The notes beneath the pieces are model-generated. The model worked only from the letters and a program-made list of their open reading frames with translations. It did not search any database and was not told the origin of the DNA. Of a DNA stretch of 64,000 nucleotides, positions 1,149 to 39,087 are shown one piece after another. The stretch lies in sequence record PQ826431.1. The stretch is one strand, 5' to 3'. This DNA is from a phage. Made by a program: the position numbers and the translations under genes. How positions within the stretch are numbered: position 1 is the first letter of the stretch; every line of letters begins with the position of its first letter.

Positions 1149-3224
1149 GTGGCAAAGAAAAAGGCAGCAGGTAGTTTAGCTGGAGTAGATATTGAAGTAA
1201 AGGCTCAACCAGGTAAACAGACTCTTGCAATGGATTTAATGCCAGAAGTTATGATTTATGGTGGTGCCGCTGGATGTGTTTCTGCTGAAACGGAATATCT
1301 TACAAAAGATGGTTGGAGGCAGATTAGTGAATATTCGGGAGAGGATATTTACCAATACAATCCTAAGAATAAGCGTTTAGAATTGGTAACACCTTATTTT
1401 GTAGAATACGATTTAAATGGAGATAACCTATACAGAATAACAAATGGTGTAGGATTATTCCAAGAACTTAGTATGGAACACCGTTTTGTATTCTATAAGA
1501 AAAAGAAATCAAAGAAACATTTCGAGATTCTTGTAGGAGATCTTATTGCATTACAGCAAATAGGAAAACCCCTGCAAGGTTATGTAGAAAATCCATTCGG
1601 TAAACGTGTTCCTTTTAACATACCTGGTAAAAAGAGCACTTACTTAAAAATACACGAGGTTATTTCAACAGATGATAAGAAATATTGTTTTGAGACTCCA
1701 AGCAGTTATATTGTCTTTAGACGTGGCGATCACTGCTTCGTTACTGGGAATAGCGGCAAGTCTCGTCTGCTATTGCTGAAAGCTTTAAAATACGCCTACA
1801 AAGACCCTTTGTTTGGTGGAATACTTTTCCGTAAGAACACCACTGCTCACCGTAAACCAGGTGGTCTGTTTACAGAAGCAAAACGTTTGTATCTTCCTTT
1901 ACAACCACACGTAAAAGAAAGTACAATGGATATCATTTTTGAAGCCACTGGTGGTGGAACCCTCAAATTTGACCATTTGGAAAATGATAACGTAACAGCA
2001 GAAACAAACCATCAGGGTACACAGTATTCAATGGTAGGTTTTGATGAGTTAACCCACTTCACACAATATGAAATGCTCTATCTTCTGGGACGTATGCGTT
2101 CAGAGTCAGAAACAAGTTTCATGTTGTGCACATGTAACCCTGACGCAGATAGTTGGGTTTTGAATTGGGTGTTACCTTATCTTGATGAGGGTGGTTATCC
2201 TAGAGAAGATATGTGTGGTAAACAAAAATATTTCATCATTGTTAACGATGAACCTGTTTTTGCTGACACACCTGAAGAACTGAAAGAAAAATATCCAGAA
2301 AACTGTTTCATGGAAAACCCTAATACAGGGGAGACAGTTGTTATTGAACCACAAACTTTCGTATTTATTGGTGGGACAATATTTGATAACCCAGAACTAA
2401 TTAGGCTTAACCCTAATTACTTAGCACAGCTTAAATCACAAACAGCTATCAAAAGAGCACAGCTTCTGGACGGTTGTTGGTTTGCACGTATCCAGAAAGA
2501 ATCTTTCTTTCAACGTGAATGGTTACATAAAATATCTTATAAAGATGTTCCTAACAATCTTAAACTAATGCGAGCATGGGATAAAGCTGTTTCAGTTCCT
2601 ACAGAAACTTACCGTTATCCAGACTATACAACATCTGTCAAAATGGGTAAAGACCAAGATGGTAATATCTACATCTTTGGCGACTATGATTATGATGCTG
2701 TGGATGAGAAAAGTAAAATTTTCGGAAGGTTTCGAAGACTACCTGGGGAAAGGGATAACCTGATTCTAAATCAATGTAAGATTGATGGACCAGAAGTTAC
2801 AGTAGTTCTTCCTAAAGACCCATCTGGTGCTGGGACAATAGAATATACAGAGTCTGCAAAGAAACTTATTCTAGAGGGTTTTGTTGTTAAACCAGATGCT
2901 ATGCCAGGCAACAAGAAAAAGCTTCAGCGTTTTATGCCTTTTAGTAGTGCGTGTCAAAACGGTTTTGTTTATATTGTTGAAGATTCTTTCCCTAATGTGG
3001 AAACTTTAACCCACTTTTATAAAGAATTGGAATCTTTCAATGGTGAAAGATCTACAGCCACTATTAAAGATGACATTCCCGATGCTGCTGCCTCTTGTTT
3101 TAATACTCTGTCAAAAGAGAATACTTTCAAAGCAGTAGCTATCCCTACAACAACAAATGCTCCTACAGGATACAGTAGAATGAACAGCGGATTTCACCAA
3201 CCGTATAGTGTCCGTAAAAGATAA
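1149..3224 (+). CDS. terminase large subunit, intein-containing
   Basis: Walker A GGAAG/SGKS split by a Hint domain, Walker B MVGFDE, large ATPase/nuclease-sized protein directly upstream of portal. Confidence 0.8.
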   Translation: MAKKKAAGSLAGVDIEVKAQPGKQTLAMDLMPEVMIYGGAAGCVSAETEYLTKDGWRQISEYSGEDIYQYNPKNKRLELVTPYFVEYDLNGDNLYRITNGVGLFQELSMEHRFVFYKKKKSKKHFEILVGDLIALQQIGKPLQGYVENPFGKRVPFNIPGKKSTYLKIHEVISTDDKKYCFETPSSYIVFRRGDHCFVTGNSGKSRLLLLKALKYAYKDPLFGGILFRKNTTAHRKPGGLFTEAKRLYLPLQPHVKESTMDIIFEATGGGTLKFDHLENDNVTAETNHQGTQYSMVGFDELTHFTQYEMLYLLGRMRSESETSFMLCTCNPDADSWVLNWVLPYLDEGGYPREDMCGKQKYFIIVNDEPVFADTPEELKEKYPENCFMENPNTGETVVIEPQTFVFIGGTIFDNPELIRLNPNYLAQLKSQTAIKRAQLLDGCWFARIQKESFFQREWLHKISYKDVPNNLKLMRAWDKAVSVPTETYRYPDYTTSVKMGKDQDGNIYIFGDYDYDAVDEKSKIFGRFRRLPGERDNLILNQCKIDGPEVTVVLPKDPSGAGTIEYTESAKKLILEGFVVKPDAMPGNKKKLQRFMPFSSACQNGFVYIVEDSFPNVETLTHFYKELESFNGERSTATIKDDIPDAAASCFNTLSKENTFKAVAIPTTTNAPTGYSRMNSGFHQPYSVRKR
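1275..1751 (+). mobile_element. mini-intein (159 aa) inserted in terminase P-loop
   Basis: Starts CVSAETEYLTKDGW (Hint block A), TxxH-like block SMEH, ends ...DHCFVTGN with +1 Ser restoring GxxxxGKS. Confidence 0.7.
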
Positions 3225-22311: not shown

Positions 22312-24465
22312 ATGAAACAAGCTATATTTACTGTCACGCGAGACAAGAGAGTAAATGCGAGTTCATTTAACTACACGACTGTTGACGGAACAGCAGTCGC
22401 TGGTAGAGATTATATTGCAAAATCGGGAACACTTGTGTTCCCTGATGATGCTGATTCTGCTACTATTGTGGTTGAAGTATTTGAACGACCAAAGAACTCA
22501 ATAGATCTTAACTTCTCCCTCCAAGTTTCAGGGATTAGTCAAAATAACATGATGGTTGAAACAACCATCAATTGTATTATAACTACTATCCAAGAAAATA
22601 CTACTCCAATAACTTGGACTACAAAAGACGTTAAAATGTTCTCTCCTATGTATTGGACAATAGATTCTCAAGCAACGGAAAGTTGTTCTATTGTATCTCA
22701 TGGAGACTCTTTTACTGCAAGATTTGTAAACAGAACAACAGCAGGTTTGGCAGGGGTTATCTGGAGCACAGTTGACAAATATGACCATAAAGGTGTTGGG
22801 TATTTGCCTCACACAGATTTAAGTTCAGAGAAACTTTGGTTTAAAATGGAAATTAGTCAAAACATGCCAGGTTTTAAAGAAGAACCTTTGGTGCCGACTT
22901 TAACTGTAACTCTCCTGGATAAAAGTGTTCATTATGTCAGTTTAGGATTCTACGCTTCAGATATTTCAGAAGATGGTAAAACAGCCACAATCAAGTTAGA
23001 TTTTGGTAATATCTTTTCTGGCCCTAATAATGATATTCCTTTGGATATGAGTGCTGTAGATAATATTTTCTTCTCTTTGATTACAGCAAGGTATGAAGAA
23101 ATAGAAGAGATTGTGCCTATTGATAGTCAAGAGGCTTGGTTTACTTTCACTCTTCTTGAACCTACTTCTGGTTACAGTATGATGAAAGTCAGCAACCTTG
23201 TCCAGCCTGAACATGATATTCGTATGTGCACATCTTATGATGATATGTATAACCTGACTCCAGAGAGAGTTATTTATAATACATATGCGCTAGGTTATCG
23301 TGGGATGATTAACCATTATAACGGAATGTCCCATTATTATGAGTTCTCATGGAATGGAACATCTTGGGCTTTAAATAGATCTGTCTTCCTGAATCCTGCT
23401 ACAGAAGCTTGGCTAAATAGTTTCCATTCTATAGCAAACGAGAAGGGCTACACAATAATGAACTCTTTAAGTTTTGAATTGATGAGCACAGTTTGTCCTG
23501 TAGAATGGGTCCAGCATGATTGGAACGATGCTCTTGCAGCAACAGGGTATAAGCCTCCTAGTTACGTGTTGTCTCCAACTATTGACGAAGGCATGGAATA
23601 TTTGCAAAATGTTATTAACAAAATAGCATCTATTTCTCAAGCTAATAACATTCCAGTCGTCATTCAAATTGGTGAACCTTGGTGGTGGTATAATACAGCA
23701 AGTAAAATGCCTTGTATATATGATTACACTACCAAACTGGCATTCAATACAGAAACAGGCTTATTTGCACAAGATGCAGGAACAATAGATAATTATAAAA
23801 CAGGAACGCCATTTGACGAATACTATGCATTTTTGTCTCGTAAACTAGGGTTAAGAGTTACAAAGTTTGCAACAGACACCAGAGCAACTTACCCAGGAGC
23901 TAAAGTAACATTGCTTCCGTTCTTACCATCGATTATCGGCAACGGTTTGATGGAGAAAGTTAACTTTCCGTCTGATTACTACATTCCTGAAGCTTTTGAT
24001 TTTTACTGTTCAGAGTGTTACGACTGGCTTCTGGAAGGTAAGATGATGAAAGCATTTGATGCAATTACCATACCACATGAAAAATTAGGTTTTGAATATT
24101 CTGATATTCACTATCTTTCGGGTTTTGTTCCAGATGCTACTCTTGCACCTTTGTATGGCTTCGATCCTGAATCAAACTACCGCACGTATCTTTGGAAAAT
24201 GATTATAGGTAATATAGTGTTGAACGCCAATAAGTTCAATGGGCTTACACAATACATATGGGCCTATCCTCAAATAATGCATGATTCTATCACGGTAGTT
24301 AATTCTCAATCCCAAGTTTTCTATATGGGTAACGTGCCTTTGAACGTTTATTTACAGGATATCACTCTTAAACAGGTAAATGTTGAGATTGCCACCATAA
24401 GTGGAATTACATTAGCCACTAAATCTGGAGAAGATTTAGTAACAACGCAAAAATTTTATATATAG
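22312..24465 (+). CDS. structural protein with N-terminal Calx-beta-like domain
   Basis: N-terminus TVTRDKRVNASSFNYTTVDGTAVAGRDYIAKSGTLVFPDD resembles Calx-beta signature. Confidence 0.4.
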   Translation: MKQAIFTVTRDKRVNASSFNYTTVDGTAVAGRDYIAKSGTLVFPDDADSATIVVEVFERPKNSIDLNFSLQVSGISQNNMMVETTINCIITTIQENTTPITWTTKDVKMFSPMYWTIDSQATESCSIVSHGDSFTARFVNRTTAGLAGVIWSTVDKYDHKGVGYLPHTDLSSEKLWFKMEISQNMPGFKEEPLVPTLTVTLLDKSVHYVSLGFYASDISEDGKTATIKLDFGNIFSGPNNDIPLDMSAVDNIFFSLITARYEEIEEIVPIDSQEAWFTFTLLEPTSGYSMMKVSNLVQPEHDIRMCTSYDDMYNLTPERVIYNTYALGYRGMINHYNGMSHYYEFSWNGTSWALNRSVFLNPATEAWLNSFHSIANEKGYTIMNSLSFELMSTVCPVEWVQHDWNDALAATGYKPPSYVLSPTIDEGMEYLQNVINKIASISQANNIPVVIQIGEPWWWYNTASKMPCIYDYTTKLAFNTETGLFAQDAGTIDNYKTGTPFDEYYAFLSRKLGLRVTKFATDTRATYPGAKVTLLPFLPSIIGNGLMEKVNFPSDYYIPEAFDFYCSECYDWLLEGKMMKAFDAITIPHEKLGFEYSDIHYLSGFVPDATLAPLYGFDPESNYRTYLWKMIIGNIVLNANKFNGLTQYIWAYPQIMHDSITVVNSQSQVFYMGNVPLNVYLQDITLKQVNVEIATISGITLATKSGEDLVTTQKFYI

Positions 24466-24473
24466 GAGTAAAA

Positions 24474-26150
24474 ATGTCAACTACAATTACTAATTTACCC
24501 GAAACATCAAAAGTTAACGGTTCAGATTACCTGGTTTTAGATCAACCTGATAAAACTGTTAAAAGCACAGTTTCCAATTTTCTTGCTGACACTGGGGTGG
24601 TTTTAGCCACCCAGTTGAAAGATACAGATGGAGCAGATTCAGGTTTATCCATTATCGGCACTAACCACCGGGGGACTTTACAGGAAGATTTAGATGCTAT
24701 CGACCGTCGTCCTGATGGGTATTCCAATAATATCCAAACAGTTCTATCGAATGGCCAGGATGTGCAGATTGCAAAAGATATTAATATCACAACAGTAATA
24801 TCGCCTGTGGCTGACTACCAAGTAATTCAAGGGGTAGGTGGTTTAGTCTCCAATACTACAAAAACGCAAGCTGTGAATATTAATGGAAAAAACGGGGTTA
24901 AAGTAAGAGATATACGTGTTTCTGGTTTAATTGTGAATGCCCCTACAACTGGGGGTAATGTGGCGTATGCTGTTAATGCTAATGACTGCTCAGATATTTC
25001 AATGATTGGTATTAATACATTTGGCTATACAGGCTCTGTGCAGCTGACAAGAGTTGCAGACTCAGTTGTTAGGGATGTGTATTCTAGAGGTAATAGATAC
25101 CATTCTGATGTTGTTGCTGGCGGGTATGGAGTTCTTCTTGGCGGGTGTAAGAGAGTTCTCATTGACGGTATTAATTTTGAGGCTGACCATGCAAAGGGCG
25201 ACTTAGGTCGCCATGCTCTGTATGTGTCCGTAGTACAGTCAGATGGTTCGTACTGTGAGGATATTATTGCAAAAAATATTATAGGTCGCTATTCAGGTGT
25301 CGATGACCGTAATATGTGGTTTATTAATATTCGCCATAGTAAGCGAGTATTGGTAGATGGGTTACTGCTGCAAGGTGGTAACGGTGGTGTAGCACTAAAC
25401 ACTGATGACGGAGAAGTTAGAGATACTCAAATAAAGAATGGGCATTTGCAAGTTCTCCAGTATGGAAGCGACACTGTCTATGGCATTAGTGGTACACCTG
25501 CTGATAGTTCTCTTCTTAACAACCTCCTGATTAGTGGTGTCTCTTTTGATATGCAAACCAAACTCGGGGTTACAGCCACCACAAACGGCATAATTCCGAT
25601 ATCTCTGAGTTGTCAGCGTTCACGTATCGAGAACATTAAAATAGCAGGTAACGGTGCGTCTACACCAATATTGCTAGGCTCCTGCTCACAATTAACCATT
25701 GATGGGGTCACTGATACGATAAACGCTGGTAGTGTTACCCAACCATTCTTGCGATTTCAGGGAACTTGCTCTGATATATCAGTGCTGAACATAGATACCC
25801 CTAGAGATACTATGTTCTTTGGGCTGGATAATGTAACTAACCTTACTGTCAACTGGGAGCGGTTTGGTCGTATTGTGAGTAACAACGGAACCATCAACAT
25901 ATCCGATAGCAACTCACTATTCAGTTCTGTCACTAGTACAGGTACTGGTGAGATTACTGTTGTATTCAAAAATCACGTTACCATTGATGCGGTCAGGAAT
26001 TGCACTGTAACCCCAGCATCGACGGCAGGATTTGTGTGTCTGCCAGAGGTTGTTGGTCGTAACTTAATTTTACGTTTCTATAATAGCAATGGTACGTTAG
26101 TTCCCCTTGCTTCTTCCATTGTATCGGCTGATGTTAGGTTACATTCATAA
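24474..26150 (+). CDS. putative tailspike/tail fibre (beta-helix-like)
   Basis: 558 aa, Gly/Asn/Val-rich repetitive beta strands. Confidence 0.4.
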   Translation: MSTTITNLPETSKVNGSDYLVLDQPDKTVKSTVSNFLADTGVVLATQLKDTDGADSGLSIIGTNHRGTLQEDLDAIDRRPDGYSNNIQTVLSNGQDVQIAKDINITTVISPVADYQVIQGVGGLVSNTTKTQAVNINGKNGVKVRDIRVSGLIVNAPTTGGNVAYAVNANDCSDISMIGINTFGYTGSVQLTRVADSVVRDVYSRGNRYHSDVVAGGYGVLLGGCKRVLIDGINFEADHAKGDLGRHALYVSVVQSDGSYCEDIIAKNIIGRYSGVDDRNMWFINIRHSKRVLVDGLLLQGGNGGVALNTDDGEVRDTQIKNGHLQVLQYGSDTVYGISGTPADSSLLNNLLISGVSFDMQTKLGVTATTNGIIPISLSCQRSRIENIKIAGNGASTPILLGSCSQLTIDGVTDTINAGSVTQPFLRFQGTCSDISVLNIDTPRDTMFFGLDNVTNLTVNWERFGRIVSNNGTINISDSNSLFSSVTSTGTGEITVVFKNHVTIDAVRNCTVTPASTAGFVCLPEVVGRNLILRFYNSNGTLVPLASSIVSADVRLHS

Positions 26151-26350
26151 TACTTAGCCCCTCTTTGTAGGGGCATTACTTAGAAAAACAAAGAGGTTGT
26201 TATGAACGAAATGTTCTCACAAGGCGGTATTGCCCCAGGTACTACTGCCATTAGTCTTAGTGCTGCCGGAGTATTAGTTCACTCTGCGGGTAATGTGGAC
26301 CTTGGGGAATTAGCTGCATATCGTGATTTAAAAAGTAATGAGAACGCACT

Positions 26351-26593
26351 ATGAGAAAATTTTTAATAGGTATGTTCTGTACATATCCTGATAATAAAGT
26401 CAGTTCTACGAAAGTCTGGAACGCTGTAGGCATGTCGGTTATGACAGGCATGTTTATCTTTTTAGGAATAGAAAAAGAAATTCCTGAATGGATGGGTTGG
26501 GCTTTTGTTTTCATGATAACTCCTTCTCGCCTCATGAAAAATCTTATTGATTTACGCTGGGGCAGATCACAATCTACCAAAGAGGATGACTAA
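26351..26593 (+). CDS. small membrane protein, holin-like
   Basis: 80 aa, two hydrophobic segments, charged C-terminus RWGRSQSTKEDD. Confidence 0.3.
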   Translation: MRKFLIGMFCTYPDNKVSSTKVWNAVGMSVMTGMFIFLGIEKEIPEWMGWAFVFMITPSRLMKNLIDLRWGRSQSTKEDD

Positions 26594-30677: not shown

Positions 30678-33600
30678 ATGGCAACATTCCCAACATATCC
30701 AGCAACGTCTCTCGAACAGGGCGTAGACCTGGTTATTTTCTCATCTAACCAACTCCATGATGTTATTAATGGAAGTGCTACAGAGAGTATTGAAACAGAA
30801 TCAGGGTTGATACCAACCCTGAGAAAAGCCCTTGTTGACAACTTTTTCTTTAAAAGCCCATTGGATTGGGCGCAAGGCACAAACGAAACAGTTTTTAACC
30901 AACTTCGTTATTTCCAGAATGGAGTATTGAGCGGTTATTACTATGCCCCTAACGCTACATTGGTTAACCCAATCCCTATGCAAGGGACTCCAGTAGGAGA
31001 TAACAACTGGGTATTGTGGGGACTGAAGACAGAACAATTGGCAACAGAAGTCACCCCTTGGGTATATTCTGGTGCAACTGGTTATGAAACAGTAATTAGT
31101 CCTCCTTACATCTTTGATAGTGCTATTGTTACGATCAATGGTGTTATTCAGGTTCTGGGGGAAGCTTTCCGTATAGAAGATAGTAAGATCATCTTATCTG
31201 AACCTTTGGGACACGATCCTGCAACAGGACTGCCAAACAAACTTTTTGCTTATATTGGCAAAATCGTAGCTTCAGCAGATACAGATCCTAATCTAGAGAA
31301 CCGTCTTGTTAGTTTAGAAACAAAAACGGAAGAACTAACAGAAAGCATGGATAAAGTCCCTCTGCAAACTATTGCTCGTAAGTATGGTTTGTTAGATGAT
31401 GAGGTGGCTTACGCAACAGCAGGTCAATCGTTAACAGGGATTAAAGCTCTGTATGATCCGGTAGCGCAGTCTTCCTACACATTACCTCCTAACATTACAG
31501 GCACTTTAACATCCTTGTCTGTTTCTGGAGTAATGACTTATTCTGGAGGATCTGTAGACCTTTCTGCACTGGCTGTTGAGCGTGGACAGTTTGTTCATTT
31601 GCCTACAAGCTTTGGTAATAATGTAACTCTGACAGCTAAAAATCAGACGATTGGACGTGGCGCTGGTCGTTATCGTTGGGCTGGAAGTTTACCAAAAAGT
31701 ATTTTGGCTTCCGATACCTTGGAGACGAGCGGAGGATTAGGTCCAAATGCATGGGTTCTGACTAATACAGAAGGACTGTTAACCCCTCGTGGTGGAACAT
31801 ACAACGATTTATTCGATGTTGTCTACTTGTCCGAATTTGCTAACAATATAACTACCTATACCACACCAGAAGCAGCTTTCCAAGCGGCACTGTTAGCAGC
31901 AAAAGCTTCGAAAAGCAAGATTCTCGATGCTTACGGTTGCGATATGACTTTCACGACAAGCTCTTTTGATATTCAAGGTATCACTTTGCGTGGGGGTGTG
32001 TTCCGTGGTCAACGCGACTATCGTGTGCAAAATGCTACAGTAGAAGGCACAACTTTCCGTAACTCTCGTGTTATGTATTGGGGTGGTGCTGTGCGCATGT
32101 TTGATTGTTTGTGGGACGGTGCTCCTCGCGCAGGTCAAGTTGGTAGCTTGGTATTCCAAGGCAACCCAATATCAGGTACTTTTGAAATTGATAACTGTAC
32201 TTTTAAAAACGGGTTGTATGGCATCCTTCAACAAGGAACAGGGGAACCAGTAACACGTGGTGTCTTCCGTAACCTTACCTTCATGGACATGCAAGGTGAT
32301 GCAATAGAACTGAACGTCATCAATAAACATTATGACGATGGTTGTGTGATTGAGAATATTTACCTGTCTAATATCGATGGGACTAACGCTCCTATTCCTC
32401 TGTCCAACTGGGGTATCGGTATCGGTGTAGCTGGTAAAGGACCATATGGTTACGGAATCCCTGATGATCAATATTGCAAGAATATTACAATTCGTAACGT
32501 TTTTGCAAAACGTTGTCGTCAGATTGTCCACGTAGAAGTTGGTCGTAATATCTCTATCGAAAACATTCATGGCGATCCAGATCAGACTGTATCTGTTGGG
32601 ACAGGTTTGGCAACTGGCGCAGTTGTAATGTACGGAAGTAAAGATTTTACGATTGACGGTGTTTACGGAGAGCCTAAAACAGACGGTAGCACACTTGCAA
32701 GTAATATCCGTATGATTTATTTGGAGTGGGGAACTAACGCAGTTCTGGACGAAGAGGGTAATCCGGTAGTTCCGGCACAGGGTAGACCTTCAAACCCATG
32801 CTTTAACTATTCTGTTCGTAATATTCACACCAAAACTGGGCGTGTTTTTGCAGGAGTTTCCGCTGGGCCAGGTTATGAAAACAGAGTTAGCTTTGAAAAT
32901 ATTCGTTGCGCTGCATTGCAGTTGTTCGGTATAGCTTCTTGGCTTTCAATGTCTAACATCACCTGTAATATCTTCGATTGTGTTGGTCAACCTGAATCTG
33001 GTCCAGGGACATTTTATGATGGATTCTTCCGTAGAGAAAAATCTGTTCTTGAAATGGTTAACGTAAACTGTTACCCAGATGGCAAGACGATGGTTACTGG
33101 TCGTCCACAGTGGAGCCGTTGCCGTTACTCGGATATTCATCGTGTCAACTGTAATGTTGAAGCTAATATGTATACCAATATCGCAGGTGGTATTGGAGCT
33201 ATTGTAGGAACAACTGGCAAAGTTTATTACTTAGAGCCTAATCCTAGTCGAAACATTGATGGAATGCATTTCCCAACAGGGAAAGAGTTTGACAAAGGTG
33301 ATATGATAGTCAAGGCGGATAATACGTTCTTCCTTGTAACAACAAGTGGGGCATATATTCCAGATATCCCAGCTTTCGGTATTCGAGCTACACAGGCAGG
33401 AGATACCTTCCTGACACAGAACTTGACTCCTAACGGGACAGCAACAAATGCTTCTTGGTTGTATCATTACCCTCTGTCAGCAGGGACACGTATCCGTATT
33501 CCTGGTGCTGGCGTAGGTGGAGCAGATTTGGACACAGTTATTACTCGTGCACCTTATCAAGATAATGATACGTGGACTAACCCAGTTAAAATAGACATTG

Positions 33601-33731
33601 CAGATCCAATTGTAACGCCTACAAGTGCTGGAGTTAGAATTAAAACCATACCTAATGATTCCAGTAATGTTTCTGTAGGTAATACTGCGGTTATTCGCCC
33701 AACGCCAGTAGTAGATGTGCCAACAACCTAA
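30678..33731 (+). CDS. putative tailspike/depolymerase (parallel beta-helix)
   Basis: 1017 aa; repeated N-I-x-I/V rungs typical of right-handed beta-helix. Confidence 0.45.
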   Translation: MATFPTYPATSLEQGVDLVIFSSNQLHDVINGSATESIETESGLIPTLRKALVDNFFFKSPLDWAQGTNETVFNQLRYFQNGVLSGYYYAPNATLVNPIPMQGTPVGDNNWVLWGLKTEQLATEVTPWVYSGATGYETVISPPYIFDSAIVTINGVIQVLGEAFRIEDSKIILSEPLGHDPATGLPNKLFAYIGKIVASADTDPNLENRLVSLETKTEELTESMDKVPLQTIARKYGLLDDEVAYATAGQSLTGIKALYDPVAQSSYTLPPNITGTLTSLSVSGVMTYSGGSVDLSALAVERGQFVHLPTSFGNNVTLTAKNQTIGRGAGRYRWAGSLPKSILASDTLETSGGLGPNAWVLTNTEGLLTPRGGTYNDLFDVVYLSEFANNITTYTTPEAAFQAALLAAKASKSKILDAYGCDMTFTTSSFDIQGITLRGGVFRGQRDYRVQNATVEGTTFRNSRVMYWGGAVRMFDCLWDGAPRAGQVGSLVFQGNPISGTFEIDNCTFKNGLYGILQQGTGEPVTRGVFRNLTFMDMQGDAIELNVINKHYDDGCVIENIYLSNIDGTNAPIPLSNWGIGIGVAGKGPYGYGIPDDQYCKNITIRNVFAKRCRQIVHVEVGRNISIENIHGDPDQTVSVGTGLATGAVVMYGSKDFTIDGVYGEPKTDGSTLASNIRMIYLEWGTNAVLDEEGNPVVPAQGRPSNPCFNYSVRNIHTKTGRVFAGVSAGPGYENRVSFENIRCAALQLFGIASWLSMSNITCNIFDCVGQPESGPGTFYDGFFRREKSVLEMVNVNCYPDGKTMVTGRPQWSRCRYSDIHRVNCNVEANMYTNIAGGIGAIVGTTGKVYYLEPNPSRNIDGMHFPTGKEFDKGDMIVKADNTFFLVTTSGAYIPDIPAFGIRATQAGDTFLTQNLTPNGTATNASWLYHYPLSAGTRIRIPGAGVGGADLDTVITRAPYQDNDTWTNPVKIDIADPIVTPTSAGVRIKTIPNDSSNVSVGNTAVIRPTPVVDVPTT

Positions 33732-33792
33732 TGGAATAGAGGGGGATTTCCCCTCTTCTTCCAATAGAATGGTCTAATGATAGGAGAGATAA

Positions 33793-35817
33793 ATGAATTT
33801 AACAAGACCTAATAGTGCGATAGCCGATCTGGTAGAAGCTACTTATCGAAAACGTCGCAGCTTTGAGGCAGGTTTTACATTACGTAATTCCCGTGAAGTT
33901 TTGCTGTTAGCAGCAGAAGGGAATTATTACCAATGGAAAGGAACTTTTCCTAAAGTAGTTCCAGCAAACTCTACACCAGCCACCACAGGTGGTATTTCTT
34001 CCCTTGCATGGCAAAGTGTTGGGACCGCTGATGATATAGCAATTATCAATGCCAAGTTTACGGCAATGCAGCAACAGATTGATGATCTGTCGGAAACAAT
34101 ACCTGAAGCTGGTAAATCGGCTTATCAGATCGCACTTGATAATGGTTTTGTTGGAACAGAAGCACAATGGCTTGCTTCTTTGAAAGGGGATACTGGTGCT
34201 CAACTTAATATTAAAGGATCATTAGCAAGCACTAGTGAACTACCATCCACAGGTAACGTTGCAGGGGATGGTTATATCGTAGGTGATGTAATCTACGCTT
34301 GGGATGGTTCTGTTTGGAAACTTATTTCTTCTCTTGGGCCAGAAGGTAAATCAGCTTACGAGGTATGGTTGGCAGATGGTAATACAGGATCTGTTTATGA
34401 TTTTCTTACCTCTATAAAAGGTGATAAAGGCGATGTTGGTCCTACAGGGCCACAGGGAGCACCTGGTGTTAACGCCAACGGTTTTGATTATCGTGGGGAT
34501 TTGCCTTCTACAAGTAACTTACCACAACCAAACTCTGAAAACGTAAGTCAAGCTTATTCTATCAATGGTAATCTTTATGTCTCTAATGGGACAGCTTGGG
34601 TCAACATGGGTAATATTGTTGGTCCTCAAGGTCCACAAGGTGAGGCAGGTAAAGACGGTCTTGATGGAACAGATGGAGATGAAGGGAAATCTGCATATCA
34701 AAGTTGGCTGGATGCTGGTAATGAAGGGACAGAAGTAGATTTTATTGCCTCACTTAAAGGTCCAAAAGGAGACAAGGGTGATCAAGGAGAGCGAGGTCCA
34801 CAAGGTGAACTAGGTCCACAAGGACCAGTGGGTGCAACAGGATCAGGCTTAGAGATTATCGGGGTTCTGAACAGTGAAGCTGAACTTCCTCCTACTGGAG
34901 AAGTAGGTGATGCATATAAAATTAATAATGATTTGTATGTTTGGATTCAAGATGCTACGGAATGGATGAATGTTGGCAGTCTTGGAGGAACATCAATTAC
35001 AGCTAAAGGTCATGTTCCGAACAGTGAAGCTCTCCCTGTTTATAATAACTATGGTGATGCCTACTTAACTGAAGACACTAGTAATCTTTACATCTATACC
35101 TACGATCAAGACACCAATTCCGCATCTTTTGTTGACATGGGAAGTATTAAAGGCGACAAAGGTGAAAAAGGGGATAAAGGAGATAAGGGTGATCCTGGAA
35201 CAAACGGAACCAACGGTACTAATGGGACCAACGGTAAAGACGGCGCACAGTGGTTTGTAGCAACAACTAATCCAGTCGCAGGTGATGGTGTTATCAATGA
35301 TTACGCTTTCAACACTACCACTGGAGCAGTGTTTAAGAAAACAGATTCTTCTACGTGGACACTTATAGGAACTCTTCCTAGTATACCAGAAGCACCTCAA
35401 GACGGCTTGACGTATGGTCGTTCTGATGGGAACTGGATCGAAATATCAGGATCAGATCCTACAGAAGCTATAACACCAACTAAAGTTACAGCAGGTTTCA
35501 TGGAACTTGAAACAACTACTGCCAACTCTGGAGCATCTTGGACTCCTTCTGGAACTTCCAATATGTATGTTGTTACAGTAACTGACGCTCTGACAGTTGG
35601 AGCATGGCCTGGTGTCACTGGCTCTACAAAGCCTAAAGCGTTTTCAGCAATGATTTATTTGATTCAAGATACAACGGGACACACGGTTACACTAGATGCG
35701 TCTTATGGAGCACTGAATGATACAGAAATAGCAACTACTGCTAACGCAGTAACAATTTTGCAATTAACGTATCCTGGTGTGGGTAATGTCGTGGACATGG
35801 TTGTTGTAACACGATAA
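33793..35817 (+). CDS. collagen-like tail fibre protein
   Basis: Several Gly-X-Y triplet runs (GDKGDVGPTGPQGAPG; GPQGPQGEAGKDG; GPKGDKGDQGERGPQGELGPQGPVG; GDKGEKGDKGDKGDPGTNGTNGTNGTNGKDG) alternating with a repeated GKSAYxxWLxxGN module. Confidence 0.6.
   Translation: MNLTRPNSAIADLVEATYRKRRSFEAGFTLRNSREVLLLAAEGNYYQWKGTFPKVVPANSTPATTGGISSLAWQSVGTADDIAIINAKFTAMQQQIDDLSETIPEAGKSAYQIALDNGFVGTEAQWLASLKGDTGAQLNIKGSLASTSELPSTGNVAGDGYIVGDVIYAWDGSVWKLISSLGPEGKSAYEVWLADGNTGSVYDFLTSIKGDKGDVGPTGPQGAPGVNANGFDYRGDLPSTSNLPQPNSENVSQAYSINGNLYVSNGTAWVNMGNIVGPQGPQGEAGKDGLDGTDGDEGKSAYQSWLDAGNEGTEVDFIASLKGPKGDKGDQGERGPQGELGPQGPVGATGSGLEIIGVLNSEAELPPTGEVGDAYKINNDLYVWIQDATEWMNVGSLGGTSITAKGHVPNSEALPVYNNYGDAYLTEDTSNLYIYTYDQDTNSASFVDMGSIKGDKGEKGDKGDKGDPGTNGTNGTNGTNGKDGAQWFVATTNPVAGDGVINDYAFNTTTGAVFKKTDSSTWTLIGTLPSIPEAPQDGLTYGRSDGNWIEISGSDPTEAITPTKVTAGFMELETTTANSGASWTPSGTSNMYVVTVTDALTVGAWPGVTGSTKPKAFSAMIYLIQDTTGHTVTLDASYGALNDTEIATTANAVTILQLTYPGVGNVVDMVVVTR
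34420..35240 (+). repeat. collagen-like Gly-X-Y triplet repeat blocks and three-fold internal module repeat
   Basis: Seen directly in translation and DNA (ggt-nnn-nnn periodicity). Confidence 0.6.
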
Positions 35818-35821
35818 CAGA

Positions 35822-35845
35822 AGCCCCGAAAGGGGCTTTCTTTTT
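35822..35845 (+). terminator. rho-independent terminator
   Basis: AGCCCC-GAAA-GGGGCT hairpin then TTTCTTTTTAT. Confidence 0.6.
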
Positions 35846-35858
35846 ATGGAGGGTTTAA

Positions 35859-38531
35859 ATGTTTCCAATTCCAATATTTACTATTATGACCAGCACTGGT
35901 GTCGTTCCTCTGCCAGCGGGTATTGTTAAAAAAGTAATCACTTTAGATTACCCATATAATGCTGGTAATTCTAACAGCAGTTTAGCAATTTTGCTTAATG
36001 ATGGTAGATTGTTTACTCAAGGCGCAAACCTTTTTGGTGAGATTGCAGATGGAACTCGTAGTGCACGATTCAATAATTTCCACTTAGCTTCTACTGTAGT
36101 AGCGGATGTGTTTACCGCAGATCGTTGTTTTGTTATTAAAACTAACAGTGGGGGATGGCAATATTCAGGATTGACAGCAGGGTTGGTAGGATCTATAGCA
36201 GCAGGTGGTACGGATGCATGTGTAACTACTTGGACCAGCTTTCCATCTGTAATAACAGGGACTATCTCTTTAGCCAATCTTAAAGAGGTTAAGGGAGGAT
36301 ATAACAACACTCTCTGGTTAATGAATAGTGGTGTTCTTTATGGATCAGGTCAAAACACAGTAGGTAGTTTAGGTGCAAGTACTACTAACGAAGTTTCTAC
36401 TCCTCGTCAGATAACAAGTGCAGCAGTTGCTTTTGATGCAGGTTACAACCAATGCTCTTATGTCAACAATGTGGGAACCTTGCGTGTTTGTGGAGCTAGT
36501 AAAGGTTTAGCAGGTAATAATAACACAACAACAGCTTTTGTCAATGCCAAGATATCCGCTACTGAAACAGTGTATGTCAAAGATTACATCAATACAGTTT
36601 CCCAGACAATAGTTGTAGGAGATACCTCCGGTGGCACGGGTGCAGTAAACTACTTATATGTTAGATCTAATACAGAAACAACCTACACTAAACTGGATAC
36701 CTTTGCAGCAGGTTTCTCAACATGGAAATTTCCACCAAGCCGCCACTCTTTTTTCGTTGGGATCAATAATTCCTTGTGGGCTATTGGTAAGAACTACACT
36801 GCAAACTTAGGTTTGGGGTATGATTCTGCGAGCGGAGATCCACTTCAAGTGGGAAAACCAGTTAAACCTGAAGGAGTGGGTTCCTGGGATATAAACAAGC
36901 TCACAAGCGTTCATACGCTGAATATGGATGTTACTAACCAATTAGGTTATCAAGGAACCTTTTTCGTTTATAATGGAGATATGTATTATTCCGGTATTTG
37001 GAAAGATGGGAAAGCCTCGTATCTGTTCAATAGTGGTCTAAACTATAATAAATTCACACCAATAGCAAGCTCTGTGATTACAGGGGATGTGCTGGCAACT
37101 AGCTTAACTACAGATTCTTTAGGAGTTTGTATTGTAGGTGGAACTAAACAGTTGACACATTCTGTTAGCCCAGAAGGAGGTAAACTTTTCAATATTAAAT
37201 ACACTTCTTCTGCCCCTGCAAACATGACAATATCATCTACTGGTTTAATGACTTTCCATGCAGAAGGTGGTTTTGATGCAGGTATGACAGCCTTAAACGC
37301 TGAAGGAACAACTTTATCAGATACCTCTGGAGGATATGCTTCAACATTGAGTGTTTACACCCCTAGCTTATCTGCGATGGATGTAGGAACAACACAAACA
37401 ATGGTAGCAGAAATAACGCCAACAGGGGCAGCAAGCTTACCTGGCATGGTTGTTGAATATACAACTACAGATCCTAGTGTTGCTACAGTAGATCCTACAA
37501 CTGGTGTAATAACTGGTGTTGGTGATGGTGGTTGTAGGATTGGTTGCACAGCTACGTATCAAGGTGTTGTTACCGCTTCCGATAGTTCTTATTTAACGGT
37601 GAATGCTGTTGCGGGAAAGGAGTTAGCTCCATCTCCGAGTAGTAGTTTAACGGTTCTAAACGGATATTTCAACCACTCGGCAGATGGGGCAATTACGTTC
37701 CCAATTTTATCGGGTACTGTCACACCAGCTAACTTTGTAGTTAAGGTGGATGACGTTGTAATACCTTCAAATAAAGTAATATTTAGAAATAAAGCTTTCT
37801 CTACAGTGGATAGTTATCCAGCAGGAGAATATAGACTGGCTATTGAATTTGCAAGTGCTTCAGTAGTGAATAGTGTTGATGTGTCTATGGAAGCAAATCC
37901 AGATCTTTTAGAATTATGGGGCGGCAACAGAATTGGTTATTCTACAAGCCCAGCCTCACAATTCTTAAAAGGTTGTGCTAACTTAAGACGAATAACTTCT
38001 GATTGTTTTAGTAACACATCTTACACCGGAACATCTATAAGTGGTATCTTCTCTGGCTGCACAAGTTTGACAGCTATCCCTGAAGGATTATTCAGTGATG
38101 CTTTATTTCCTTCAATGACAACAATGTCAAGCACGTTTGAAGGTTGTACATCTTTAACATCTATTCCTTCAGATTTATTTAAGAATCTATCAAAAGTTAC
38201 AAGATATTCTTACACTTTTAAAGATTGCACCTCTCTTGCAGAAGTTCCAGCAGGAATGTTTGATAATATTCCAACGAAAGTGACCTCTTTAACAGCTACA
38301 TTCCAAGGTTGTTTAGCACTTACAGATTTTAATAAAATCTTTAATGACAACCCAGGGTTAACTGTTTGTGGTAAACGTGGAGCATTATCTTCTTTCTTTA
38401 GTGGATGCACAAATCTTACAGGAACAGGAACAACATTAACAAATACATTAGGTGGAGTAGCTAATAGTTACCTATTCAGGTATTGCACAAAACTTTCTGA
38501 TTATAACAATATTCCTTCGGGTTATAAATAA
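35859..38531 (+). CDS. virion-associated protein with Big_2-like Ig domain and BspA-type leucine-rich repeats
   Basis: Big_2-like segment about 37360-37600 (TPTGAASLPGMVVEYTTTDPSVATVDPTTGVITGVGDGG); C-terminal repeats about 37960-38500 (FSGCTSLTAIPEGLF / FEGCTSLTSIPSDLF / FKDCTSLAEVPAGMF / FQGCLALTDF / FSGCTNLTG). Confidence 0.5.
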   Translation: MFPIPIFTIMTSTGVVPLPAGIVKKVITLDYPYNAGNSNSSLAILLNDGRLFTQGANLFGEIADGTRSARFNNFHLASTVVADVFTADRCFVIKTNSGGWQYSGLTAGLVGSIAAGGTDACVTTWTSFPSVITGTISLANLKEVKGGYNNTLWLMNSGVLYGSGQNTVGSLGASTTNEVSTPRQITSAAVAFDAGYNQCSYVNNVGTLRVCGASKGLAGNNNTTTAFVNAKISATETVYVKDYINTVSQTIVVGDTSGGTGAVNYLYVRSNTETTYTKLDTFAAGFSTWKFPPSRHSFFVGINNSLWAIGKNYTANLGLGYDSASGDPLQVGKPVKPEGVGSWDINKLTSVHTLNMDVTNQLGYQGTFFVYNGDMYYSGIWKDGKASYLFNSGLNYNKFTPIASSVITGDVLATSLTTDSLGVCIVGGTKQLTHSVSPEGGKLFNIKYTSSAPANMTISSTGLMTFHAEGGFDAGMTALNAEGTTLSDTSGGYASTLSVYTPSLSAMDVGTTQTMVAEITPTGAASLPGMVVEYTTTDPSVATVDPTTGVITGVGDGGCRIGCTATYQGVVTASDSSYLTVNAVAGKELAPSPSSSLTVLNGYFNHSADGAITFPILSGTVTPANFVVKVDDVVIPSNKVIFRNKAFSTVDSYPAGEYRLAIEFASASVVNSVDVSMEANPDLLELWGGNRIGYSTSPASQFLKGCANLRRITSDCFSNTSYTGTSISGIFSGCTSLTAIPEGLFSDALFPSMTTMSSTFEGCTSLTSIPSDLFKNLSKVTRYSYTFKDCTSLAEVPAGMFDNIPTKVTSLTATFQGCLALTDFNKIFNDNPGLTVCGKRGALSSFFSGCTNLTGTGTTLTNTLGGVANSYLFRYCTKLSDYNNIPSGYK

Positions 38532-38536
38532 GAAAA

Positions 38537-38560
38537 GGAGCCATTTGGCTCCTTTTCTTT
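38537..38560. terminator. bidirectional rho-independent terminator between convergent arms
   Basis: AAAA-GGAGCC-ATTT-GGCTCC-TTTTCTTTT; perfect hairpin flanked by A-tract and T-tract. Confidence 0.65.
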
Positions 38561-39087
38561 TATTCAGCGTTCAACCCTTCCCCATGTTCTTGATGCCAAG
38601 CTTCATGGTGCAGAGGACACAGCCATAGAACATCTAACGGTTTATCATAATCACAATGATGAGCATGAACATCAACAGACCCACACACTTGGCAAGGCTG
38701 TTTTACTAACTTTCCATCTCGGAGTGCGTTACCTACAGCTATATGAGCAGAACGTTTTTTCGGATTCTTTTCGATGTAACGTTTCTTAGCTTCATTAGCC
38801 TTATCTTTACCTTTCCCTTTTGCGTAAGCCTCTTTCAAAGCTTTGCGCTCTGGGGTCTGATCTCTGCTTTTATCATACTCTTTGTAATATTCAGATTTAT
38901 CTTTACGATTCTGTTTAACATCTTTCTTATTACATTCCTTGCATTTATTGACGTGACCGTCAGCCATAGCTTTATGTTTGTAAAATTCAGTGAGGGGCTT
39001 TAACACCCCACACTTGAAACAAACCTTAGAAGCAATGCAGGAAGTTTCGACCATATTGCAGTCCAATAGGGGCAAATGGAATATCAT
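38560..39087 (-). CDS. HNH endonuclease
   Basis: N-terminal Cys4 ribbon (CFKCG...CKEC), C-terminal HNH-type motif VHAHHCDY...LWLCPLHHEAWH; ORF track extends to 39252 but real start is probably an internal Met (39087 or 39054). Confidence 0.6.
   Translation of the reverse strand: MIFHLPLLDCNMVETSCIASKVCFKCGVLKPLTEFYKHKAMADGHVNKCKECNKKDVKQNRKDKSEYYKEYDKSRDQTPERKALKEAYAKGKGKDKANEAKKRYIEKNPKKRSAHIAVGNALRDGKLVKQPCQVCGSVDVHAHHCDYDKPLDVLWLCPLHHEAWHQEHGEGLNAE

What the first reader, a model, noticed from the sequence alone, without database searches (positions are those of the whole stretch)
33793..35817. Collagen-like tail fibre with an alternating three-fold module repeat
Four Gly-X-Y runs alternate with three copies of a roughly 30-residue module (GKSAYQ/E-x-WL-x-x-GN...SLKG/SIKG). 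The DNA shows matching ggt-nnn-nnn periodicity, which makes the region prone to recombination and length variation.
Basis: seen in the sequence. Interest (0 to 1): 0.45.

Follow-up and report, generated by a model that had tools for sequence, protein, structure and literature searches.

The report
Known collagen-like phage tail fibre
This is the already-annotated collagen-like tail fibre gene of a phAPEC8/phi92-type E. coli phage; its repeats are real and stable, and only the lengths of the collagen stretches change between species, so the finding is ordinary.

Summary
The ORF at 33793-35817 (+, 674 aa) is real. It is the orthologue of phAPEC8 gp179 (98.9% nt) and phi92 gp151 (about 60% aa), and GenBank records already call it tail fibre, tail spike or collagen-like protein.

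There are four Gly-X-Y runs (6, 8, 10 and 11 triplets) and three 26-residue GKSAY...S[LI]KG modules.

- a second repeat of about 50 residues, predicted four-stranded, present four times;
- an N-terminal Tail_spike_N anchor domain;
- a 22-residue motif 59% identical to the T4 fibritin foldon, lying downstream of all the collagen runs and followed by a confidently modelled β-sandwich.

The "recombination-prone" idea is only partly right. The three modules are 56-64% identical at DNA level, with exact runs of 8 nt or less. Their number is constant in all 14 close orthologues examined. At least 49 Phapecoctavirus records that align end to end have the same 2025 nt. Length differences between species are whole Gly-X-Y triplets, confined to collagen runs 2-4.

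The periodicity is not an assembly artefact.

The position in the virion and the receptor remain unresolved in the literature.

The parts
33793..35817 (+). Complete CDS of the collagen-like tail fibre (674 aa plus stop)
   Evidence: ORF list. 98.9-99.2% nt identity to annotated tail fibre genes of phAPEC8-like phages. Full-length match to PHROG 15437.
33738..33756 (+). 7-bp stem-loop (AGAGGGG-GATTT-CCCCTCT) just after the upstream gene's stop codon
   Evidence: Read directly from the sequence. Not called by the terminator scan because there is no T-run.
33782..33786 (+). Shine-Dalgarno AGGAG, 6 nt before the ATG
   Evidence: Read directly from the sequence.
33826..34023 (+). N-terminal Tail_spike_N (PF18668) domain, aa 12-77; presumed virion or RBP-complex anchor
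   Evidence: Pfam E 1.3e-19, 70.5 bits against a cutoff of 25. Sequence matches to solved tailspikes: CBA120 TSP1/3/4, G7C gp63.1, 9vvr.
34027..34098 (+). Predicted long α-helix, aa 79-102 (probable short coiled coil)
   Evidence: AF2 secondary structure gives H79-102. The phi92 gp151 annotation note says 'central domain predicted as coiled-coil'.
34111..34188 (+). Module A1 (GKSAYQIALDNGFVGTEAQWLASLKG), aa 107-132, subtype 'A..GF.GTE..WL.SLKG'
   Evidence: Predicted as two short helices, H110-116 and H123-130. 88-96% aa conserved between genera.
34189..34344 (+). Module B1, aa 133-184, predicted four-stranded β module (LP..G..GD.Y....Y.W....W)
   Evidence: AF2 strands E139-144, 159-163, 166-170 and 175-180, pLDDT about 66-81.
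34345..34422 (+). Module A2, aa 185-210, subtype 'WL..GN.G...DF..S[IL]KG'
34420..34473 (+). Gly-X-Y run 1, aa 210-227, 6 triplets; length invariant among orthologues
34474..34620 (+). Module B2, aa 228-276
   Evidence: pLDDT 70-83.
34621..34692 (+). Gly-X-Y run 2, aa 277-300, 8 triplets; 5-11 in orthologues
34684..34761 (+). Module A3, aa 298-323, flush with collagen runs 2 and 3 on both sides
34759..34848 (+). Gly-X-Y run 3, aa 323-352, 10 triplets; 8-10 in orthologues
   Evidence: Period-18 array at 34783-34824.
34849..34989 (+). Module B3, aa 353-399
34990..35151 (+). Module B4, aa 400-453 (longer hairpin insert)
35152..35250 (+). Gly-X-Y run 4, aa 454-486, 11 triplets. It holds two period-9 arrays, (KGD/KGE)n and (TNG)n, and is the main site of length variation (4-13 triplets).
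35251..35385 (+). β-rich segment, aa 487-531 ('B5-like'); relation to B1-B4 not demonstrable
   Evidence: hhalign probability 17% or less. AF2 predicts strands.
35386..35460 (+). Foldon-like motif, aa 532-556 (core 534-555, IPEAPQDGLTYGRSDGNWIEIS)
   Evidence: 13 of 22 residues identical to the T4 fibritin foldon; 567 PDB foldon-bearing sequences matched; E 1.5e-4 to 3e-4 against isolated 27-28-aa foldon chains. β-hairpin predicted. A534, P535, D537, Y541, R543 and W548 are invariant in 11 orthologues.
35515..35814 (+). C-terminal β-sandwich domain, aa 575-674; presumed distal tip
35820..35849 (+). Intrinsic-terminator-like hairpin (GAAGCCCC-GAAA-GGGGCTTT) plus T-run, 2 nt after the stop codon
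   Evidence: sequence. phAPEC8 annotates a terminator at the same place.

Best explanation
The gene encodes the conserved collagen-like lateral tail fibre of a Phapecoctavirus, the orthologue of phAPEC8 gp179 and phi92 gp151. I infer that it is a homotrimeric, segmented 'rods and beads' fibre.

- An N-terminal Tail_spike_N domain fixes it to the baseplate or branched receptor-binding-protein cluster.
- A short coiled coil follows.
- Next come three small helical A modules, four β-rich B modules and four collagen triple-helix rods, about 30 nm of collagen in all.
- After the last rod sits a foldon-like β-hairpin clamp, then a C-terminal β-sandwich.

The foldon and C-terminal domain most likely set trimerisation and chain register, so that the collagen segments can zip up from the C-terminal side. 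The tip domain would contact a conserved host surface structure.

Shown here: identity, orthology, synteny, domain and repeat content, sequence similarity to the foldon, and the pattern of length variation.

Inferred: trimer state, folding order, overall length, location in the virion and receptor binding.

Length evolves by gain or loss of whole Gly-X-Y triplets in runs 2-4, probably by slippage in the period-9 arrays of run 4. It does not evolve by recombination between the diverged A modules.
For: - Identity: 98.9-99.2% nt to annotated tail fibre genes in about 70 phage records; full-length PHROG 15437 'tail fiber protein'.
- Synteny: colanidase, then this fibre, then a large tail protein, in phAPEC8 and phi92.
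- Domains: Tail_spike_N 70.5 bits and Collagen 46.5 bits.
- N-terminal domain: matches solved tailspikes of CBA120, G7C and others.
- Foldon: 13 of 22 identities. PDB matches include foldon-collagen fusions 1nay and 9gfr, which show that a foldon can register a collagen helix. Fibritin_C passes Pfam's cutoff in relatives such as P0016, 36.6 bits against 21. A foldon-like motif lies about 78-106 residues after the start of the last collagen run in the relatives where I compared positions, e.g. P0015, P0026, P0040, P0044 and P0045.
- Repeats: A and B modules are statistically supported.
- C-terminal domain: confidently modelled (pLDDT 82 overall, above 90 in the domain) and shared by many phage fibre genes.
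- Length variation: all gaps fall in collagen runs, apart from 1-2 columns in the C-terminal domain.
- Stability: 674 aa in all listed full-length cluster members.
Against: - No direct evidence here that the protein is in the virion or where. The 2026 phi92 cryo-EM study could not fit gp151 into any fibre density and calls its function uncharacterised (PMC13450770).
- The monomer AF2 model is poor overall (pLDDT 57), and no trimer could be predicted.
- Pfam's Fibritin_C model does not report this protein itself.
- The gene is unusually conserved for a receptor-binding protein, while neighbouring genes are swapped.
Confidence: 0.72

Rival explanations
1. Connector or scaffold fibre. The protein is a proximal, non-receptor-binding segment. 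Its C-terminal β-sandwich would dock another receptor-binding protein, for example the downstream 890-aa RCC1/Big_2 protein. This would resemble T4 gp34 or gp9 and the XD domains of CBA120 TSP2/TSP4.
For: - tblastn hits include genes annotated 'long tail fiber proximal subunit' in jumbo phages.
- The gene lies in a block 98% identical to phAPEC8, while flanking RBP genes are replaced.
- The BASEL study notes it is unclear which genes build which fibre (PMC8594841).
Against: - The domain sits at the extreme C-terminus of many different fibre genes, the usual place for a distal tip.
- BLASTP finds no similarity to the first 150 residues of the upstream colanidase, the stretch that matches PHROG 4549 at profile positions 153-261.
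Confidence: 0.15
2. Fibritin-like whisker or capsid/neck decoration rather than a baseplate fibre. It would be an accessory fibre with a sensing, chaperone or loose-adhesion role.
For: - The foldon motif is the hallmark of T4 fibritin.
- The phi92 annotation note mentions a 'potential capsid binding domain'.
Against: - The N-terminal domain is the Tail_spike_N type, which matched only tail spike and tail fibre chains among solved structures.
- The gene sits inside the baseplate and tail fibre gene block, between the colanidase tailspike and another tail protein.
- TM-scores to Pa223 gp52 are very low (0.13/0.26).
Confidence: 0.08
3. The repeat structure is an assembly artefact, or a hypervariable contingency locus whose copy number changes between isolates.
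For: - Two deposited genomes have aberrant versions. SKA64 has a 76-nt tandem duplication of module A1 that breaks the frame. EP57 has a 486-nt in-frame deletion from A3 to the end of run 4.
- Run 4 holds period-9 arrays.
Against: - 49 independently assembled Phapecoctavirus records that align end to end have the same 2024-2025 nt span.
- 13 of 13 listed full-length members of the 90% cluster are 674 aa. In the phi92-type cluster 13 are 653 aa and 2 are 656 aa.
- The modules have diverged to 56-64% nt identity.
- The EP57 junction shows no homology between its end points, and the EP57 genome is about 20 kb shorter than its relatives.
Confidence: 0.03

Closest known systems
phAPEC8 gp179 (AFU62750.1) and the equivalent tail fibre of all Phapecoctavirus isolates
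   Same: Same gene: 98.9% nt identity, the same 2025 nt and 674 aa, the same neighbours.
   Different: Only point substitutions. Neighbouring RBP genes differ at window 24626-26398 and 37610-39074.
phi92 gp151 (YP_009012483.1), Justusliebigvirus tail fibre
   Same: Orthologue with about 60% aa identity over the full length. Same order of N-terminal domain, A and B modules, four collagen runs, foldon and C-terminal domain; same synteny after the colanidase gp150.
   Different: 653 aa instead of 674. It has 2, 1 and 5 fewer Gly-X-Y triplets in runs 2, 3 and 4 (27 against 35 in total). Its location in the virion is still unresolved.
T4 fibritin (gpwac) foldon; Pfam Fibritin_C PF07921
   Same: The 22-residue β-hairpin motif shares 13 identities. 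By my reading of the published foldon structure these include the Glu5-Arg15 salt-bridge pair, Tyr13, the Asp17-Gly18 turn and Trp20. In both proteins the motif lies C-terminal to the fibrous part.
   Different: Fibritin is an α-helical coiled coil with the foldon at the very C-terminus, and it is attached at the neck. Here the fibrous part is collagen plus β modules, another 118 residues follow the foldon, and Pfam's model does not report this protein.
CBA120 TSP1-4 and G7C gp63.1/gp66 branched tailspike complexes (Tail_spike_N, PF18668)
   Same: Homologous N-terminal domain, E 1e-6 to 1e-13 against solved chains. The upstream colanidase carries the same domain internally at aa 302-361. This is consistent with a multi-RBP cluster.
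   Different: Those proteins continue into enzymatic β-helix tailspikes. This one continues into a non-enzymatic collagen and bead fibre.
Bacterial collagen-like adhesins (Scl1/Scl2, Lcl)
   Same: Uninterrupted Gly-X-Y runs that are poor in Pro and rich in charged residues. Here Pro is 8 of 35 at X and 2 of 35 at Y, and charged residues are 16 of 35 at X and 13 of 35 at Y.
   Different: NCBIfam scores of 35-61 bits are far below the family cutoffs of 325-500. There is no LPXTG anchor or V domain, and the collagen is split into four short rods by globular modules.
Pseudomonas phage Pa223 capsid spike gp52 (9ny6)
   Different: 9-14% identity and TM 0.13/0.26. Pa223 gp52 has no collagen and no foldon, and no Tail_spike_N domain is described for it; it is attached to the capsid.

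Membership tests
Collagen triple-helix repeat protein (Pfam PF01391) | Uninterrupted Gly at every third residue over several triplets, scoring above the Pfam gathering threshold | tested here: met
   46.5 bits against a cutoff of 27.2, in 3 stretches. Four runs of 6-11 triplets, never reached in 2000 shuffles.
Collagen triple-helix repeat protein (Pfam PF01391) | Actual formation of a trimeric triple helix | not testable with these tools
   Only monomer prediction was available. The collagen segments have pLDDT below 50.
Stephanstirmvirinae collagen-like tail fibre (phAPEC8 gp179 / phi92 gp151; PHROG 15437) | Full-length sequence homology | tested here: met
   PHROG 15437 matches aa 1-674 to profile 1-655 of 656, 1335 bits. 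98.9% nt to phAPEC8. About 60% aa to phi92-type proteins with 100% coverage.
Stephanstirmvirinae collagen-like tail fibre (phAPEC8 gp179 / phi92 gp151; PHROG 15437) | Conserved gene position directly downstream of the colanic-acid-degrading tailspike | tested here: met
   The upstream ORF 30678-33731 matches PHROG 6117 'colanic acid degradation'. The same order holds in phAPEC8, phi92, PD06, alia and ESCO9.
Stephanstirmvirinae collagen-like tail fibre (phAPEC8 gp179 / phi92 gp151; PHROG 15437) | Presence in the virion tail | not testable with these tools
   No proteomic or structural data for this protein. phi92 gp151 could not be placed in cryo-EM density.
Tail_spike_N (PF18668) N-terminal domain of branched tailspike systems | Domain match above the gathering threshold | tested here: met
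   70.5 bits against 25, aa 12-77 matching profile 4-69 of 70. PDB sequence hits to CBA120 TSP1/3/4 and G7C gp63.1.
T4 fibritin foldon (Pfam Fibritin_C PF07921) | Sequence match to the 27-residue foldon, including its key residues | tested here: met
   aa 534-555 against the foldon gives 13 of 22 identities and E 1.5e-4 to 3e-4 against isolated foldon chains. The key positions are invariant or nearly so in 11 orthologues.
T4 fibritin foldon (Pfam Fibritin_C PF07921) | Hit to the Pfam Fibritin_C model | tested here: not met
   No family was reported for aa 485-674 even at E 10 or less. Relatives P0016 and P0028 do pass, with 36.6 and 30.3 bits against 21.
T4 fibritin foldon (Pfam Fibritin_C PF07921) | β-hairpin propeller that trimerises | tested here: inconclusive
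   A β-hairpin (E540-544, E547-551) is predicted in the monomer models, with pLDDT about 73 in the short model. Trimerisation cannot be tested.
DUF2934 (PF11154), considered for the A module | Match to the Pfam model | tested here: not met
   No hit for aa 101-207 at E 10 or less. Only relatives with 13-17 A modules reach the cutoff by summed weak matches that lie within A modules.
LPXTG collagen-like adhesins Scl1/Scl2/Lcl (NCBIfam) | Score above the curated cutoff | tested here: not met
   61, 49 and 35 bits against cutoffs of 400, 500 and 325. The similarity is confined to the Gly-X-Y runs.
gp9 / TSP4-N-terminal-type β-sandwich, considered for the C-terminal domain | Fold similarity | tested here: inconclusive

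The most novel reading that the evidence does not exclude
The 26-residue GKSAY...SLKG unit would be an undescribed but very widespread intra-collagen trimerisation or register module. Two short helices per chain would give a six-helix knot in the trimer. Phages would combine this unit with β beads and a foldon clamp to build fibres of adjustable length.

In support, I found no solved structure, no Pfam match in this protein and no paper in the held library. The unit occurs 0-17 times per protein among the 60 best-scoring homologues I tabulated, out of 1865 found.
Probability: 0.25. Interest if true: 0.4.

Novelty: already known. Interest (0 to 1): 0.2.

Why it matters
It matters little as a discovery. 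The gene is a near-identical copy of a tail fibre already annotated in dozens of phAPEC8 and phi92-type phages, some of them explicitly as collagen-like.

The useful outcomes are a corrected domain map (two repeat families, N-terminal anchor, natural foldon downstream of the collagen, conserved C-terminal β-sandwich) and a clear picture of how the fibre changes length: by whole Gly-X-Y triplets, not by module copy number.

These phages are used therapeutically, and the literature still cannot say which gene builds which of their fibres. The map could therefore help fit gp151-type fibres into cryo-EM density, or help engineer fibre length.

Tried and rejected
- Pfam scans of the A-B region and of the C-terminal 145-190 aa at E 10 or less returned nothing.
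- PF26209 is precomputed for the orthologues but is absent from the local Pfam copy, so I could not name it. It is present in the EP57 deletion protein and absent from relatives that cover only 67-78% of the query. I therefore infer it is the C-terminal domain.
- Profile searches of PDB with 46 A modules (best E 0.48) and 27 B modules (best E 0.17) gave no significant hit. The look-alike stretch in φKZ gp184 (E 0.33) belongs to an internal capsid protein and was dropped as probable chance.
- A literature search for the motif 'GKSAY' found only unrelated papers. 'Phapecoctavirus + tail fiber + collagen' found none. Schwarzer et al. 2012 on phi92 is not in the held library.
- The full-length AF2 monomer model was poor (pLDDT 57), so whole-model fold matches are weak. 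Only the N-terminal domain, B modules and C-terminal domain are usable.
- 9cuy_g, the φTE fibre, shares the C-terminal domain by sequence. However, only N-terminal fibre residues were modelled in that structure, so it gives no template.
- I checked the EP57 deletion junction for repeat-mediated recombination and found no homology.
- BLASTP of the C-terminal domain against the first 150 residues of the upstream colanidase found no alignment.
Full report
**What is there**

Window 33793-35817 (+) is one ATG-initiated ORF of 674 codons. An AGGAG Shine-Dalgarno lies 6 nt upstream. A GC-rich hairpin plus T-run follows 2 nt after the stop codon.

The translated product contains four uninterrupted Gly-X-Y runs: aa 210-227, 277-300, 323-352 and 454-486, with 6, 8, 10 and 11 triplets. 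It also contains three 26-residue GKSAY...S[LI]KG modules at aa 107-132, 185-210 and 298-323.

Shuffling the residues 2000 times never gave a run longer than 7 triplets, nor more than one run of 5 or more. The Gly codons in the runs are GGT 18, GGA 10, GGG 4 and GGC 3. The DNA periodicity is therefore GGN-NNN-NNN, about half of it GGT.

1. A second repeat family, B, of about 50 residues with the pattern LP..G..GD.Y....LY.W....W...G. It lies at aa 133-184, 228-276, 353-399 and 400-453.
   - Profile-profile comparison of orthologue sub-alignments gives 85-97% probability for most B-B pairs (B1 against B4 only 27%) and 97-99% for A-A pairs. A-B controls give 7% or less.
   - A fifth β-rich segment (aa 487-531) is not demonstrably related (17% or less).
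2. Pfam Tail_spike_N (PF18668) at aa 12-77, 70.5 bits against a cutoff of 25. It matches the solved tailspikes CBA120 TSP1, TSP3 and TSP4 and G7C gp63.1 by sequence.
3. A foldon-like motif.
   - aa 534-555, IPEAPQDGLTYGRSDGNWIEIS, aligns with the T4 fibritin foldon [22 protein letters not shown] at 13 of 22 positions.
   - A 49-residue query around it matched 567 PDB sequences at E 1 or less. All 60 listed carry the foldon or are foldon-tagged constructs. E is 1.5e-4 to 3e-4 against isolated 27-28-residue foldon chains.
   - The identical positions include those I know from the published foldon structures to be critical: Glu5 and Arg15, Tyr13, Asp17-Gly18 and Trp20. A534, P535, D537, Y541, R543 and W548 are invariant in 11 orthologues.
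   - Pfam's Fibritin_C model does not report this protein, but it passes its cutoff in relatives.
4. A C-terminal β-sandwich (aa 575-674) modelled at pLDDT mostly above 90.

The true order is: N-domain, helix 79-102, A1, B1, A2, GXY1, B2, GXY2, A3, GXY3, B3, B4, GXY4, β segment, foldon, C-domain. 'Alternating' is only loosely right.

**Identity**

- The DNA is 98.9-99.2% identical over its full length to annotated tail fibre genes of phAPEC8-like phages (genus Phapecoctavirus, Stephanstirmvirinae). 71 records matched by megablast.
- It is about 64% nt and 60% aa identical to the phi92-type gene PHI92_gene_151.
- PHROG 15437 'tail fiber protein' matches end to end.
- Gene order is conserved in phAPEC8, phi92, PD06, alia and ESCO9: tail fibre assembly protein, small protein, colanic-acid-degrading tailspike, this gene, large tail protein.
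- GenBank and NCBI names for orthologues include 'collagen triple helix repeat protein', 'lateral tail fiber protein with type I collagen domain' and 'collagen-like protein'.

The collagen-like tail fibre is therefore already known and annotated.

**Stability and variation of the repeats**

- At DNA level the three A modules are only 56-64% identical. Their longest in-register exact matches are 7-8 nt, so they are poor substrates for homologous recombination.
- All 14 close orthologue clusters have three A modules.
- Every Phapecoctavirus row listed that aligns end to end spans 2024-2025 nt, apart from SKA64. That is 29 of 30 rows and 21, or 49 distinct accessions. The other two exceptions are EP57 and phiWec179, described below.
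- All 13 listed full-length members of the 90% cluster are 674 aa. In the phi92-type cluster 13 are 653 aa and 2 are 656 aa.
- Between species and genera the length does change, but every gap lies in collagen runs 2-4 and is a multiple of three residues, apart from 1-2 columns in the C-terminal domain.
- Run 1 is fixed at 6 triplets. Run 2 ranges 5-11, run 3 ranges 8-10 and run 4 ranges 4-13.
- Run 4 holds two period-9 DNA arrays, (KGD/KGE)n and (TNG)n. The indels in phiWec179, phi92 and PD06 fall there, which fits slippage.
- Two deposited genomes are aberrant. SKA64 has a 76-nt tandem duplication of A1 that destroys the frame. EP57 has a 486-nt in-frame deletion with no junction homology, in a genome about 20 kb shorter than its relatives. 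I treat both as defective variants or assembly errors.

**Structure**

The full-length AF2 monomer model is poor (pLDDT 57), as expected for an obligate trimer. It still gives consistent local structure:

- each A module as two short helices (pLDDT about 45-60);
- each B module as four strands (pLDDT about 60-83);
- the foldon as a β-hairpin.

By sequence the domain is homologous to the C-terminus of the φTE fibre 9cuy_g (E 8.5e-15), which was not modelled in that structure. It also ends fibre genes in 392 phage records, including rV5-like, GAP31-like, PVP-SE1-like and jumbo phages.

**The wider family**

1865 proteins score E 1e-10 or better. In the 60 best-scoring ones that I tabulated, lengths run from 377 to about 1170 aa, with 0-17 A modules and up to about 109 Gly-X-Y triplets. 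In the relatives where I compared positions, a foldon-like motif lies about 78-106 residues after the start of the last collagen run.

A modules fall into two subtypes: 'A..G[FY].G[TS]E.EWL.SLKG' (A1) and 'WL..GN.G.E.DF[LI].SLKG' (A2 and A3). I found no solved structure, no Pfam match in this protein and no paper for the A module. In relatives with 13-17 copies, summed weak matches to DUF2934 fall on A modules.

**Most likely mechanism (inference)**

- The protein forms a homotrimeric rods-and-beads fibre.
- The Tail_spike_N domain anchors it in the multi-RBP baseplate cluster. The upstream colanidase carries the same domain internally.
- The foldon clamp and C-terminal domain nucleate the trimer and set chain register. 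The four short, Pro-poor, charge-rich collagen rods can then fold. They total 105 residues, about 30 nm at 0.286 nm per residue.
- Engineered foldon-collagen fusions in the PDB (1nay, 9gfr) show that this arrangement works.
- The A and B modules act as rigid or hinge beads between the rods.
- The C-terminal domain contacts the host.

The gene lies in a block 98% identical to phAPEC8 while RBP genes on either side are replaced. This suggests either a conserved receptor or a structural role.

**What is unresolved in the literature**

The BASEL study states it is unclear which genes encode which lateral fibres in this phage group (PMC8594841). The 2026 phi92 cryo-EM study could not fit gp151 into any fibre density and calls it uncharacterised (PMC13450770).

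**Verdict**

The feature is an already known, annotated tail fibre. Interest is low (0.2). A modest residual interest lies in the uncharacterised A module and in the unresolved position of the fibre in the virion.

Noticed in passing
window 24626-26398 and 37610-39074: Against phAPEC8 the tail region is collinear at 97-99% identity except for two stretches with no blastn match. One covers most of ORF 24474-26150 (558 aa, no Pfam hit), which sits where phAPEC8 has its 921-aa 'endo-N-acetylneuraminidase' fibre gp171. The other covers the C-terminal third of the 890-aa RCC1/Big_2 tail protein and the region after it. These look like host-range cassette swaps flanking the conserved collagen fibre.
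   Followed up: partly
L003 (Escherichia phage SKA64, OM362897.1), locus about 1884-1959; equivalent to window 34112-34187: A perfect 76-nt tandem duplication of module A1 shifts the reading frame, so the record annotates only a 549-aa 3' ORF. It is either a defective variant or an assembly or sequencing error.
   Followed up: partly
L002 (Escherichia phage vB_EcoM_EP57, OR544956.1), locus 1501-3039; equivalent to window 34744-35238 deleted: An in-frame 162-codon deletion runs from inside A3 to the end of collagen run 4, with no homology at the junction. The genome is 130.7 kb against about 150 kb for relatives.
   Followed up: partly
window 34104-34203 (module A1): The DNA of module A1 is 77-87% identical over 60-100 nt to fibre, 'tail sheath' or structural genes of unrelated phages: Acinetobacter Ab3/Ab5/Phab24, Cellulophaga phiST/phi13:1, and the Pseudomonas jumbo phages PA1C, PhiPA3, 201phi2-1 and D6. 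This module is unusually conserved or mobile.
   Followed up: no
window 30678-33731: The upstream colanic-acid-degrading tailspike is 1017 aa, against 804 aa for phi92 gp150. It has Tail_spike_N internally (aa 302-361). Its N-terminal stretch (aa 9-114) matches PHROG 4549 at profile positions 153-261, the same PHROG whose C-terminus matches the collagen fibre's C-terminal domain.
   Followed up: partly
window 22312-24465: A 717-aa ORF in this myovirus tail module matches Pfam 'Non-contractile tail sheath protein' N-terminal and TIM-barrel domains (E 5e-79) plus a Calx-beta domain.
   Followed up: no
window 35859-38531: The downstream 890-aa tail protein combines RCC1-like β-propeller repeats, Big_2 Ig-like domains and a weak DUF285-type leucine-rich C-terminus. 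It could be a partner or a separate receptor-binding protein.
   Followed up: no
proteins P0028-P0030 (metagenomic relatives): Relatives with 13-17 A modules reach the Pfam cutoff for DUF2934 (PF11154) through summed weak matches located on A modules. This hints that the A module is a helix-turn-helix unit related to that uncharacterised family.
   Followed up: partly
window 33738-33756 and 35820-35849: The fibre gene is bracketed by two GC-rich stem-loops. The downstream one has a T-run and is annotated as a terminator in phAPEC8, although the next gene starts only 20 nt later.
   Followed up: no
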